Below are positions 27,483 through 38,971 of a stretch of 64,000 bases of DNA, piece by piece. A model generated the notes under the pieces. That model was not told the origin of the DNA, searched no databases, and saw only the letters and a program-made list of their open reading frames with translations. How positions within the stretch are numbered: the first letter of the stretch is position 1; each line of letters begins with the position of its first letter. Both the position numbers and the translations under genes were made by a program. The stretch is taken from contig OZ024746.1 in the NCBI GenBank assembly GCA_964016885.1, positions 44,702,001 through 44,766,000 of the forward strand, in the 5' to 3' direction. This stretch comes from Eledone cirrhosa. Taxonomy: Eukaryota.

Positions 27483-29600
27483 AATAATTTCTTACTAAAA
27501 ATGAGCTTCATGAATAAAATAATGATGCAATTTAAAACAATCCCGATTTCAGTCCATAATGAAACAGGTTGAAATATTTAATGGCAACTTTTAAAATCTA
27601 CACACATTTAATAATAAATTAGATATTCAAATTCTCACCTATTATACACACAATGTTTTATCTTCTGACTGCGGTGTTCTACTTTGTGCAAACACATTAT
27701 AGTAAATGTTGCGCTGATATCTACTACAAAATGTTGCTTAAATTGACTTCTGACTCACTTCTATTTCATAAACGAATCAGACAAGAATATCGATACAGCT
27801 TAAGGGAATAAATATATGTACTTTCTTTCACTCGTTTTGCAGTGAAGCCATCTTATTTTAACCTTTGACCGTTTGATTGATCATTAAAAATAAACATCTC
27901 ATAGATTCAATTGATTTAATACATAAAACTTTGTCTATATTTAAAATACTTTTGATATTCTAAAATGAAGTTGTATTGAGTTGATTTCTAAACCCAACGA
28001 AAGCTACTGACATTTAACCCCTGAAAGCGTTTTTGGAGAATAGAAACGTTTTCAATATTCTTGCAAACAGAATAGAAATGCTATATTTAGTATCTTAAAA
28101 CTTTCATGTTTTCGCAATTTTGTTGCGTGCAAGCATTACTTATATTTATAAAACTTAAATACATTTAAATATGTTTAAATAGGTTGAATATATTATTTGA
28201 CTGGAATAAAAATCTTCATGTAGTTATGGAAACTACTAGATAAACATAAGCGATTTGAATCAAATCATTCTTATATTTTTTAATCATCCCCATAATTATT
28301 TTTTCTAAGCTTAAATTTATAGCAGAACAAGCGAGAGTATAGAAATTGAATGAAAATATCTGTTTACTCAATGATTATTAGCTAAGTAATAGTTGTTAAC
28401 AGTTGAACAACACTATTAATTAGCGATCTATATATTGATATACACAGAAATTACAATTTCTGAGAATTGCATTATCTTACACCAACATCCTTTAATAAGA
28501 ATATTTATTTCTGATTCGAGGAACTCTTCAATAGAGTTTTATCTAATTCAGCAAGTAATGACAAAGATACTAATGTATGGACTACGAAATATACATGCTA
28601 TTTTAGATTTGAGTGCTGTATTTCAATTGAGAGCTAAAAGCTTAGAGGTCAAATATATATTTTTTTAATAAGAATATAACTTTTTAAATGCATATTTAGT
28701 CAAATAATGATGCACACTTAGTCAAATAAAATATATAAATACAAACATATTTCAGATGTTCTCGGTAATAAAATGGACATTTTGCACCCAAAACATTAAT
28801 CTTTCAAATAAATAATATAATCATGAATATAATTTAAAGAGACTAAAAAGCAAAACAAGTGAAAACATTATTTTTATGGGAGGTATATTTGAGAATACTG
28901 AATTAAGCGTGAAAAAGATAGCGGCCAGCTAGCTACACATGACTGTTTCAAACGATCGAGTAACGTTATTTGTATTGCGATATGAAAATAGGGTATTCAG
29001 AAAGAAATATTGAATCAATAATAAAGCAATTAATTGGTCTGCCAGTTTGTAATGGGATAAATAAAACATGTTGAGAGTTTTATCTATATATGTTAAGTAA
29101 ATGTTATAGTCATATAGACAGAGACACGCAGACAGTATATGTGTATTTATATAGGCGTGTCTATATATTAATGTATGTATATATATATATATATATATAT
29201 ATATATATATATATATATATATATATATATATATATGTGTGTGTGTGTGTGTATACATATATATATATATATATATATATATATATATATATATATATAT
29301 ATATATATATATATATATATATATAAATATAATATATATATATATATATATATATATATATATATATATATATATATATATATATATATATATATATATA
29401 TATGTAGATAAATCTACCAAGAGTTTACGGTAGTGTCCAATCCGTATGAAGAACTCAATGTAATCCGGATATCATGGAAAGAAGAGATGCAATGAAAAAT
29501 CACTTTCGGTGAAAGATAAACGGAATACAGAGTCAAGATATAATATTAAAAAAATAATGAATAAAACAATGAAACAGTTCCTTATATTAAACAAAAAAAG

Positions 29601-29755
29601 TTCATTATTTAACGATCGTTTCTAGGATATATATGTGTTAGAATTGGCATGCATATTCAACAGATCTATGTACAAAATTATACAAAATTATACAAACTAT
29701 CAAAATTAAATATACATACCCAACACATATATATGCCGTCTTCAGAAATAATGAA
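29601..29755 (-). ncRNA. Type I hammerhead ribozyme (left arm)
   Basis: Reverse complement of 38637-38791. Confidence 0.8.
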
Positions 29756-32700
29756 ATATATTTATTGATAATAACAACAATTCAAAATTTCAGGTCCGTT
29801 TGGGAACAGAGTTCAAATTGACCAATGAGAATACAAACAATTTTATGCAGTTTGGTGTGTGTATATACATGTAATTAACTTCGTACACATATTTACATAA
29901 AGATATATGTTCACATGCATACGCATGCCAAAAAGATGTATGCAAATACAAAAATTCAAGGCTAATGTCTCTGTAAGTCTATAATCCACAGATAAAATGC
30001 GTATAGACACATAAATATGAAATAAATGTATACACACATTCATATACTCACACATATTCGTACACTCACACACACACGCGCGTATATGCATAAACATACA
30101 CATAACTACGAACATACATACACACACACACCCCCACACACATATATATGTGCATATAGTATTATCATAAGCATATGGACATTAATGCACGCACATAAAC
30201 ACTGCCACACATATTTAGATCAGGATACAGAAATTAGGTGGGAGGGGGGGAGAGGTCAGTATTCAACGGTTTCGGCAGACTGCCTATTTATAGATGTATC
30301 TATAAACTTAGAAATAAAAAGAAAAGAAAAAGAAAAAAGAAAAAAGAAATATATCAAGAAAATATATATATATATATATATATATATACATCCACACATA
30401 CACACACACACACACACACATATATATACATATACATATATATATACACATATATAAACACATACATATATATATACACATACATATACACATATATACA
30501 CACACACATATACACACACATATATATATATATATACACACATATACATACACACACATATATATATATAAACAAGTAAAATATAAAGTATATATCGATA
30601 TACATACATATAGACATATAAATAAATACACACGCATACACACACATACATATACATACATATACATACACATATATATAAACACATACATACACATACA
30701 TATACATACACATACCATATAAATACACATACACATACATAGACGCATACATATAGAGACACATACATATACACATATAAATACATAGACACATACACAC
30801 ATAAACACATATATATATATTTTTTTTTTTACACACATATACACATACACGCATACATATATATATATATACACATATATACATATATATATATATATAT
30901 ATATATATATATATATATATACATATATATATACACTCACAACACTCGTATATATATACACACTCATACATATACACACATATACATATACATACATATA
31001 TATATATATATATATATATATATATATATATATACATATATATATATACATATATATACAGTCACACCTACATACATATATATATATAAATACACTCATA
31101 TATATACACACATACACATACATACCCACATATAAATATATATATATATATATATAAATATATATATATATACACACATACACACATACACATACACACA
31201 TATATATATATATATATATATATATATATATATATATATATATATATATATATACAGATACATACACATACATACACATATACACACATACATATATATT
31301 CACACACACACACCTACACATACAAACACATACACATATATAAAGATATATATATACACACACACACAAACATATAATAAATATATATATATATATATAT
31401 ATACATATATATACATATACATATACATACATACATACATACATATACATACATATATATACACACATATACATACACACATACACACATACATACATAC
31501 ACACACACATACATACACACACATACATACTCATACATAGACATAGATATATACTCACACACACATACGCACTTACATATACGCATATATACAAATACAT
31601 ACACATCCATATATGCGTATATACATACAAACACCACTACACGCTCACACAACTCAGACATACAAAGAAAAAGGTATATACATATACATATATACACATA
31701 TAAATAGAGATACATATACACATATATATATATATATATACATATATATATATACCCACACACACGTACAACTATAAACACACATACAAACACATACATA
31801 CATACATACATACATACATATATATACACACACACAAAGACACACATACATATATATATATATATATATATATATATATACATATATATATATATATATA
31901 TATATATACATATATATACATACATACACATACACACACACACATATATAGACATGCACACACATACATACATACATACATACACATACACATACATATA
32001 TATAAAAAAAAAAAAAAATTAATACACACAGTCAGACAAATATGCACACACATACATATACATATATGTATATATATATATACACACACACACATACACA
32101 CACACACATACATATATATACACACATACATACACACACACATATATATATACATACATATACACACATCAACTACAAATATACAATATATATATATATA
32201 TATATATATACACACACATATACATATTTTCACATATATATATATATACATATATTATATTATAATAATAAATAATATATATATATATATATACATATAT
32301 AGACATACATATATATACACACACACACACTCACATATATATGCGCACATACGTACACATATACACATACACACATATACACATAGACATATACATGTGC
32401 ATACATGTACATACGCACATATACCCACATAGATACAAAGATACACATATATATAGAGAGACATACATATACATACACATATATACACACACATACATAC
32501 ACACGTACATATATATACATACACGTATACACACACATACATATATATATATATATATATATATATATATATATATATATATATATGTATATATATATAT
32601 ATATATATACACACAATCATACACCCTTATTTGCATGCGCATATATGTATTTTTATACTTACAAATAAACACCCAAACATATATACACCTACCTACATAT

Positions 32701-33813
32701 ACATACATACATACACGCTTACAAATACAAATAATAATAGTAGGGGGGGAAAGGGTGGGGGGAGAAGGGGATTATAGTAAATATATGTTTCAAGAAACAT
32801 AGAATATTAATCTGTATTTGGATCTCAATATGTGTTTACATAGTTTCAGTATTAGGAAATGCAAGAAAGAAGGCAAAATTATGCATTTCAATATAAGTAT
32901 ACCATTAATTATAGGTTAACTAAACTAAAGATAGTTAATATATTGATTTCTAAGGTGTAAATTACTTAGGTTTATAATATTTGAAGCAGAATTTTGAAGT
33001 TAAATAGTAGTAGAGTATTAATTATAGTATAACTAAATTAAAATTATTAACGTTATGGTATCAATTTTAGGAAATGAATTTAGTAATAGGGAAAAAACAA
33101 ATAAAGTATTACATCGGTAGTAGAATATAAATTATAGGTTAACTAAATTAAAAATTATATATTAATTTCTATAGTATATGTTAATTAGGTATATAATAAA
33201 TAAAACAGATATTGTATTTTATCAATAGTAGAATATAATTATATGTAAACAGAAATTAAAATTAATACATACACATATACATATACATACATATATATAT
33301 ACACATATGTATACATACATACACATACACATATATACATACATATACATATTTTTTCAAAAATTGCAAAGAATATATTAACTATGTATACATCCAAAAC
33401 CCATCCCATTCTATGATTACATGACACTCTGCAATCCGTCTGTATTAGGATACTAATTTTAAGCCAATTAAATTAAATTTTTAGGTTGACCAAATTTAAA
33501 ACCAAATTATAAATATATTTCTAAAATGTATATTAATTAGGTCTATAATACTAAAAATTATTTCTCTGTCATTGAATACACGATATTTTGTTATATTTTA
33601 TCCGTAAAGGAATTTTAATAAAGGGTTAAATAAATTAAAATTAATCTATAAATTAAATTACTAAGTATATATTAGTAATATTTAAAGGTTTTTCACAATT
33701 TATGATTACACAATATTTTATATTCTCATCTGTAGTAGAATTTTAATTAAATTAAATTTATAGGTTAACTAACATTTAAATTAAATTATATATTAATTTC
33801 TAAAATAATGTTA

Positions 33814-38300: not shown

Positions 38301-38636
38301 ATGCATATACGCGCGTGTGTGTTTGAGTGTACGAATATGTGTGAGTATATGAATGTGTGTATACATTTATTTCATATTTATGTGTCTATACGCATTTTAT
38401 CTGTGGATTATAGACTTACAGAGACATTAGCCTTGAATTTTTGTATTTGCATACATCTTTTTGGCATGCGTATGCATGTGAACATATATCTTTATGTAAA
38501 TATGTGTACGAAGTTAATTACATGTATATACACACACCAAACTGCATAAAATTTTTTGTATTCTCATTGGTCAATTTGAACTCTGTTCCCAAACGGACCT
38601 GAAATTTTGAATTGTTGTTATTATCAATAAATATAT

Positions 38637-38791
38637 TTCATTATTTCTGAAGACGGCATATATATGTGTTGGGTATGTATATTTAATTTTGATAGTTTGT
38701 ATAATTTTGTATAATTTTGTACATAGATCTGTTGAATATGCATGCCAATTCTAACACATATATATCCTAGAAACGATCGTTAAATAATGAA
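38637..38791 (+). ncRNA. Type I hammerhead ribozyme (right arm)
   Basis: Stem I TTCATTATTT/AAATAATGAA (10 bp), CTGAAGA core, stem II ATATATATGTGTTGG/CTAACACATATATAT, then GAAAC-GATC-GTT. Confidence 0.8.
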
Positions 38792-38971
38792 CTTTTTTTG
38801 TTTAATATAAGGAACTGTTTCATTGTTTTATTCATTATTTTTTTAATATTTATATATATATATATATATATATATATATATATATATATATATATATATA
38901 TATATATATATATATATATATTATTAAGGATACTATTTATGGTTATGTATATATATATATATATATGTGTG

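What the first reader, a model, noticed from the sequence alone, without database searches (positions are those of the whole stretch)
29403..38850. 9.4-kb PLE fold-back with 3.5-kb arms and an uninterrupted RT-EN ORF in the loop
The open 506-codon frame and highly similar arms indicate a young insertion. The ORF's ATG is created by the inversion junction (GAAATGAATTT|TGAT). The implied 3' UTR is about 4.4 kb, which seems very long for a PLE. Read-through would give a 3.5-kb dsRNA hairpin with a ribozyme motif at its 3' end, a potential ADAR or small-RNA substrate.
Basis: partly seen in the sequence, partly recalled or inferred. Interest (0 to 1): 0.75.

Follow-up and report, generated by a model that had tools for sequence, protein, structure and literature searches.

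The report
Oversized Hydra-clade Penelope fold-back insertion
This is a young, cut-short, head-to-head double copy of a jumping gene (a Penelope-like element of the Hydra group) with thousands of copies and an unusually long, microsatellite-filled 4-kb tail; the mirror shape is the family's normal footprint and likely arises because one template is copied from both cut strands of a TA repeat.

Summary
In detail: 3.5-kb arms at 97% identity and an open 506-codon frame, set in (TA)n. It is not a one-off. It is a 5'-truncated member of a young Hydra-clade PLE family (813-aa ORF, 4,706 exact tail matches), and 49 of 60 sampled ORF-bearing copies carry an inverted arm. The loop ORF lacks the first ~309 residues, including RT motif A, so it cannot be an active RT. 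Its ATG is arm-derived, as at 7 of 38 comparable junctions. The long 3' UTR is a true family trait (3.7-4.6 kb in 11 of 11 units; unit 6.3-7.2 kb against 2.1-2.7 kb for published complete Hydras) and is about half alternating TA/CA repeat. A type I hammerhead with a 116-nt stem II is present. Resolved fold-backs pair a long end with a short end 135 nt upstream (56 of 58; none long/long), either arm can be longer, and both arms share one template. This favours priming from both target strands over snap-back. No RNA run was listed, so dsRNA and ADAR editing are untested. The scan already reported twin priming and long-armed hammerheads on other DNA of this genome; the 7-kb unit and long-arm same-template test are what this locus adds.

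The parts
29170..29402 (.). (TA)n/(TG)n microsatellite target, left flank
   Evidence: sequence
29403..29537 (-). 135-nt one-sided tail; long 3' end of the element (family position 7008); holds a predicted ACTC/GAGT stem
   Evidence: ends pile at two positions; 4706 exact tail matches; fold z -1.6, weak
29538..33081 (-). left arm = distal 3.5 kb of the sense 3' UTR
29601..29755 (-). type I hammerhead ribozyme, 10-bp stem I, CUGAAGA/GAAA core, 116-nt stem II domain, palindromic stem III; predicted cut after 29611
30370..32760 (-). mixed (TA)/(CA) microsatellite block carried inside the 3' UTR (approximate bounds)
   Evidence: alternating-RY fraction 0.7-0.9 in these bins against 0.09 for the rest of the window; present in 11 of 11 units
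32760..33813 (-). proximal 3' UTR built of degenerate tandem duplications of the ORF end
   Evidence: self-alignment, 68-77% identity repeats
33814..35337 (-). 5'-truncated Hydra-type ORF: RT motifs B'-E, thumb, 105-aa N/K/T-rich linker, CxCx5C, GIY-YIG endonuclease; arm-derived ATG at 35334-35332
35327..35329 (.). head-to-head inversion junction, 2-nt overlap, at a recurrent family breakpoint (family positions 1075-1080)
35327..38850 (+). right arm = inverted 5'-truncated second copy of the 3' UTR, ending at the short end (family position ~6873), no tail
38637..38791 (+). second copy of the hammerhead; predicted cut after 38781
38851..38920 (.). (TA)n microsatellite target, right flank

Best explanation
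The locus is a 5'-truncated, head-to-head insertion of a young ~7-kb Hydra-clade Penelope-like retrotransposon in a (TA)n tract, likely made in one event in which both nicked target strands primed reverse transcription on the same template. Shown: the family unit (813-aa RT + GIY-YIG ORF, 3.7-4.6-kb microsatellite-rich UTR, hammerhead fold, 135-nt tail), two fixed 3' end points, one of each per fold-back, and arms that come from one template lineage. Inferred: the endonuclease nicks both strands of the self-complementary TA tract. One RT starts at the tail end and the other 135 nt upstream. Each falls off at a variable point, and the two cDNAs are joined through short microhomology. The 3.5-kb arms are long simply because the UTR is long. 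The loop ORF is a by-product: RT-dead and at most an endonuclease fragment, with no evidence of expression. The UTR likely grew by tandem duplication of the ORF end plus microsatellite expansion, and is itself a target for new family insertions.
For: 150 of 150 scored endonuclease hits are 100% identical, many with the full 830-codon frame. Hydra motifs RWR, DKT, CxCx5C, CxxC and CxH are present, with no CCHH; the model's top fold matches are telomerase RTs. An inverted arm is present in 49 of 60 ORF-anchored loci. End pairing: 27 long/short + 2 long/hammerhead-cut-site of 29 resolved (60 loci); 7 of 7 (11 loci incl. the window); 22 of 22 (38 tail-anchored loci, one corrected by inspection); none long/long. 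The ORF-bearing arm ends long in 15 and short in 12 of the 27. Arms differ at 0-5 of 561 columns in 28 of 28 pairs, against a between-locus median of 30; 16 locus-private alleles are shared by both arms, in 13 loci. Junction overlap of 2 nt or more occurs in 22 of 39 junctions without extra bases, against 21% expected; 17 of 77 junctions are mirror-symmetric. Frangieh 2024 (PMC11167929) shows two-strand nicking, two internal RT start sites matching the tail, and a predicted dimer for a Poseidon PLE.
Against: Sequence cannot tell one RNA copied twice from two RNAs of one source locus, or from gene conversion between arms. 9 of 60 ORF-anchored loci have no arm and 2 are unresolved. 16 of 38 tail-anchored loci showed no short-end partner (solos, one arm ending at a third point, or arms running off the 10-kb stretch). 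20 of 59 resolvable junctions have extra bases rather than microhomology (the window's own junction is among them only because of panel mismatch). The tail-anchored set cannot show short/short pairs. In a 468-nt context the minimum-energy fold keeps hammerhead stems II and III but loses stem I. No independent read or contig spanning this junction was found. No biochemical test was done.
Confidence: 0.8

Rival explanations
1. Self-priming or snap-back: a single cDNA (or an antisense template) folds back and copies itself to make the inverted arm, as hypothesised for rotifer Penelopes.
For: Proposed in PMC3846280 from palindromic junctions (passages). It explains identical arms and the 17 of 77 mirror junctions.
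Against: A cDNA started at the tail end that folds back must leave the tailed arm as the longer one, yet the tail-less arm is the longer, ORF-bearing one in 12 of 27. A cDNA started at the short end cannot add the tail. It gives no reason for an exact stop at one position (48 ends at 6873).
Confidence: 0.1
2. The hairpin is a functional host RNA element: read-through gives a 3.5-kb dsRNA used by ADAR or small-RNA pathways, and the junction ATG expresses an endonuclease-only protein.
For: Geometry allows it: 97% arms and an open 506-codon frame with an intact endonuclease part. Rotifer Penelopes give antisense small RNAs (PMC3846280).
Against: Arm-derived ATGs occur at 7 of 38 junctions and an open frame is expected in a copy this young (8 differences in 1509 nt from its nearest full-length relative among 6). 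No host exon was found near the locus among 107 frames scanned (one weak C2H2 hit 25 kb away). Template-derived alleles show no A>G excess (4 of 16).
Confidence: 0.07
3. Assembly or library artefact (a fold-back chimeric read).
For: No short-read contig or read spanned the junction in 4 runs, none known to be from the same individual.
Against: The arms differ by 32 substitutions and 17 indels. The mirror stops exactly at family end points, with a one-sided tail. The unique flanks do not match. The same rule holds at dozens of loci.
Confidence: 0.03

Closest known systems
Hydra clade of C-terminal EN+ Penelope-like elements (Craig et al. 2021, PMC8557442; sections 6, 11, 15, passages, supplement parts 2 and 58 read)
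   Same: RT + C-terminal GIY-YIG; RW(R/K), DKT, CxCx5C, CxxC, CxH, no CCHH; (TA)n target; 3' type I hammerhead; partial tandems, inverted 5'-truncated copy and a one-sided tail (Penelope-13_HM is listed with an attached inverted copy).
   Different: Unit 6.3-7.2 kb against 2084-2729 bp for the 14 complete of 27 listed Hydras; 3' UTR 3.7-4.6 kb and 43-50% alternating TA/CA; tail 135 nt against 30-40; 116 nt between the hammerhead core halves against about 25 or fewer in the listed Hydras; 105-aa N/K/T-rich linker where aligned Hydras have about 10-20 residues.
Poseidon PLE of Anolis carolinensis, PAc (Frangieh et al. 2024, PMC11167929; parts 1-2 of 4 read)
   Same: Two RT start sites that delimit the tail; AT-rich target; both strands nicked and extended.
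   Different: Different clade; PAc start sites are adjacent and inside the ORF start, here 135 nt apart at the end of a 4-kb UTR. In the parts read, the paper does not report one site per end of an inverted insertion.
Adineta vaga Penelopes (PMC3846280; passages read)
   Same: Inverted pLTR, optional tail, N-rich in-frame inserts in the ORF, and a family (Pen1) with a long spacer before the 3' pLTR.
   Different: Low copy number; the Pen1 spacer is 0.9-1.5 kb of captured DNA that differs between copies, whereas this UTR is homologous across all 11 units; those authors favour self-priming.

Membership tests
Penelope-like elements (EN+) | Single ORF with telomerase-like RT and C-terminal GIY-YIG endonuclease | tested here: met
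   813-aa family ORF; top fold matches are TERTs; GIY-YIG-like IVY...YIG at residues 692-711. Pfam gave no significant hit.
Penelope-like elements (EN+) | Partial tandems, inverted 5'-truncated copy, tail at one end | tested here: met
Hydra clade | RWK motif; DKG changed to DKT | tested here: met
   RWR at 37 (one conservative change), SDKT at 114 (definition)
Hydra clade | CxCX5C linker, no CCHH in the endonuclease, CxxC and CxH at the C terminus | tested here: met
   CNCRNKANC at 673, CRLC at 771, CNH at 799; no Cys pair between the GIY and YIG halves beyond one Cys each side; compared by eye with Fig. S7 rows
Hydra clade | Insertion into (TA)n | tested here: met
   outer ends followed by (TA)n
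Hydra clade | Canonical hammerhead near the 3' end | tested here: met
   core and three stems present, but stem II is 116 nt and Rfam misses it; cleavage not assayed
Hydra clade | Generally short (<3 kb); descriptive, not diagnostic | tested here: not met
   6.3-7.2 kb in 11 of 11 units against the list
Hydra clade | RT phylogeny groups with reference Hydra proteins | not tested
Naiad/Chlamys | N-terminal endonuclease | tested here: not met
   endonuclease is C-terminal
Penelope/Poseidon, Neptune, Nematis | CCHH motif in the endonuclease; DKG; YVDD/YIDD-type motif C | tested here: not met
   DKT, YRDD and Hydra-type post-thumb block

The most novel reading that the evidence does not exclude
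A currently active, three-times-oversized Hydra PLE whose RT dimer copies one RNA twice from two fixed sites to write both ends of each insertion, whose long-armed hammerhead occasionally supplies a third start, and which spreads about 2 kb of TA/CA microsatellite per full copy. It would thereby seed its own targets and scatter kilobase-long perfect hairpins (potential ADAR/small-RNA substrates) through the genome.
Probability: 0.3. Interest if true: 0.7.

Novelty: new variant of a known kind. Interest (0 to 1): 0.42.

Why it matters
How PLEs form their tandem and inverted insertions is named as an open question in PMC8557442 (section 15). This family offers many near-identical intact ORFs, two exactly mapped start sites, a simple (TA)n target and arms long enough to show a shared template, so the both-strands model can be tested directly in vitro. 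It also extends Hydra unit size from under 3 kb to 7 kb and shows a retroelement that carries its own target microsatellite. The genomic load is modest: at least ~8 Mb, about 0.3% of the assembly (a lower bound). The single locus itself is ordinary.

Tried and rejected
Rfam scans found only microsatellite-driven miRNA matches below gathering score. My first hammerhead pattern (core halves up to 60 nt apart) missed the ribozyme, and notebook entry 1 wrongly says none; searches corrected this. Pfam does not recognise the protein. No RNA holder listed, which is no evidence either way on expression. Reads and contigs of 4 of the 17 listed runs covered both sides but gave no spanning record for this junction; inconclusive. 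A search of 107 of 142 candidate frames for host exons gave only weak hits. The ADAR footprint in template-derived alleles showed no excess (4 A>G of 16). mis-placed the stop in 2 of 11 units because of a relic duplicate; corrected. The one short/short pair flagged is a nested mini-insertion; a second short/short call had no family sequence between its ends and was not counted. Seed-based breakpoints at 6045, 4722 and 4683 are mapping artefacts and were not used. Literature searches for twin priming in PLEs (one unrelated review), octopus/Hydra PLEs, SSR-carrying Penelopes, long hammerhead stems and cephalopod editing were read as listings and abstract starts only. PMC13282606 (passages) and bioRxiv 10.64898/2026.07.22.740005 (part 1 of 5) added nothing on this family. 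bioRxiv supplements could not be seen and might list it.
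Full report
Observation. Self-BLAST of the window gives one dominant inverted repeat, 29538-33081 against 38855-35327, 96.98% over 3581 columns. The arms differ by 32 substitutions and 17 indels, almost all in microsatellite; 3 substitutions fall in 1107 non-SSR positions. The loop holds an open frame at 33814-35337(-), 506 codons from an ATG that lies in arm-derived sequence, with a 2-nt overlap at the junction. Both outer ends abut (TA)n, and the unique flanks do not match each other.

Family. A search of the own genome with the last 148 residues scored 150 of 64,666 candidates; all 150 were 100% identical, many in an 830-codon frame (the candidate count includes other families and is not a copy number). 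Ten such loci gave a tandem unit of 7008 nt with an 813-aa ORF. The 33-nt tail end has 4706 exact matches and the short end 1904. The protein has RWR, SDKT, FDIDNYY, DITMGS, YRDD, CNCRNKANC, a GIY-YIG core without CCHH, CRLC and CNH. These are the Hydra diagnostics of PMC8557442 (section 11), and by eye it follows the Hydra rows of Fig. S7. Its predicted structure (pLDDT 83.7, 40-sequence alignment) best matches telomerase RTs, with residues 479-573 disordered. That stretch is a 105-aa N/K/T-rich insert. No tree against named references was built. The window frame joins the family protein at about residue 310, after motif A (251), so it is RT-dead by established RT chemistry. An arm-derived in-frame Met occurs at 7 of 38 comparable junctions, so the ATG is unremarkable. 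Six full-length ORFs differ by similar numbers of synonymous and non-synonymous codons between sublineages (21-28 against 21-24), which suggests purifying selection on several source lineages. Their UTRs have diverged by 2-19%, against about 2% in the ORF.

The long UTR. In 11 of 11 natural units the UTR is 3741-4578 nt and 43-50% alternating purine-pyrimidine repeat (9% for the rest of the window). The 14 complete Hydras of 27 listed in PMC8557442 File S1 are 2084-2729 bp in total. The proximal kilobase consists of degenerate duplications of the ORF end, followed by ~2.4 kb of TA/CA repeat and a ~0.9-kb terminal module. Mini-copies of the family sit inside the UTR microsatellite of other copies (L125, L013/L014). 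Family sequence averages at least 1.7 kb per tail in 38 tail-anchored loci, or at least ~8 Mb in all (a lower bound because diverged arms broke the chain). An earlier AI note reports a 4.6-kb Hydra family in this genome (not checked), so long units may be a local trend.

Hammerhead. Window 29595-29765(-) folds into a type I hammerhead: 10-bp stem I, CUGAAGA, a 116-nt stem II domain, GAAA, palindromic stem III and a GUU cut triplet; z -5.6, 0 of 200 shuffles. The core and stems persist in a relative at 78% identity; a second, at 76%, has a damaged core. Of 13 distinct loci genome-wide where TA repeat follows within 25 nt of the GAAA, 6 end within one base of the predicted cut site (counted by eye). 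That hints at cleavage in vivo but is rare beside thousands of regular ends, and local TA-like letters could contribute. In a 468-nt context stem I is lost from the minimum-energy fold, and with the antisense arm present the whole motif is paired. A read-through hairpin would therefore likely silence the ribozyme.

Architecture. Sixty ORF-anchored loci were taken in list order, leaving out full-frame hits and second hits of one insertion (contigs C1-C4 only). 49 have an inverted arm, 9 none and 2 are unresolved (the script printed 49/10/1, and one of the 10 is a tandem running off the stretch). Outer ends pile at two positions 135 nt apart (65 at 7008, 48 at 6873, of 128 listed). Where both outer ends are seen, the pairs are 27 long/short plus 2 long/cut-site (60 loci), 7 long/short (11 loci with the window), and 22 long/short (38 tail-anchored loci; 21 by script, one after inspection). 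None is long/long. The ORF-bearing arm ends long in 15 and short in 12. In the tail-anchored sample, the first hits on C1, 27 of 38 are under 1 kb. The window's 9.4 kb is therefore at the large end but not the largest (L092/L093 spans 12 kb).

Template. For segments covering family positions 6300-6860 at 84% identity or more (99 segments; more diverged neighbours and a few diverged arms were dropped by this filter), 28 of 28 opposite-strand pairs in 27 loci differ at 0-5 of 561 columns. The between-locus median is 30. Sixteen alleles private to one locus are on both arms and 33 on one arm only. Of 78 junctions, 59 were resolvable: 39 without extra bases, 22 of them with 2-6 nt overlap (21% expected at random), and 20 with extra bases (two loci contribute twice). 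17 of 77 junctions are mirror-symmetric. 30 of 64 terminal breakpoints fall at 6654-6666, the 5' edge of the hammerhead, and 6 of 67 ORF breakpoints at 1075-1080 (P 0.0016 against uniform), the window's among them.

Mechanism. Shown: two fixed ends, one per side; either arm longer; one template lineage. Inferred: both strands of the TA tract are nicked and each primes RT at one of the two sites, and the cDNAs are joined in the middle. This fits the in vitro behaviour of the Anolis PLE (PMC11167929) and is hard to reconcile with snap-back self-priming (PMC3846280). One RNA copied twice, two RNAs from one source, and gene conversion cannot be separated here. dsRNA, editing and small RNAs are untested (no RNA holder listed); template-derived alleles show no A>G excess.

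Novelty. Inverted copies and one-sided tails are published PLE features. I found no paper stating the one-site-per-end rule or a 7-kb Hydra, but the library is incomplete. This scan had already reached twin priming, single-template and long-armed-hammerhead readings on other DNA of this genome; a look-up by this protein found nothing. Verdict: ordinary locus, new oversized variant of a known clade, useful as a test system.

Noticed in passing
window 17350-20097: A second, older Hydra-type fold-back: 666-nt arms at 90%, frameshifted RT-EN ORF in the loop (39-44% identity to the family protein).
   Followed up: partly
window 48683-51228: Non-coding AT-rich fold-back with 870-nt arms at 93% in (TA)n, with a degenerate hammerhead-like motif near each outer end (read by eye).
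   Followed up: partly
window 22986-23780, 25705-26232, 52600-53674, 55317-55895: Four more Hydra-like ORF fragments, 30-52% identical to the family protein.
   Followed up: no
window 38975-39315: Small inverted repeat right of the element, enclosing a stretch that looks tRNA/SINE-like by eye.
   Followed up: no
window 63547-63795 (+): Frame with a weak C2H2 zinc-finger match below the Pfam cut-off; possible host exon.
   Followed up: no
family position 6654-6666 (e.g. L094, L101, L108, L112, L116, L117): 30 of 64 terminal 5' breakpoints pile at the 5' edge of the hammerhead, giving ~560-nt mirror minis; may mark a transcript start or an RT barrier.
   Followed up: partly
L125 and L013/L014: Mini-copies of the family inserted into the TA repeat of another copy's own 3' UTR.
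   Followed up: partly
L017/L018, L064, L076 units, ~880 nt after the stop: A relic copy of the ORF's last codons inside the 3' UTR of one sublineage.
   Followed up: partly
family positions 6345-6396: 10 of the 16 locus-private alleles shared by both arms cluster in this 50-nt stretch; unexplained.
   Followed up: no
flanks of many fetched loci: Many other type I hammerheads with 6 to 82 nt between the core halves, so long stems II recur in other families of this genome.
   Followed up: no
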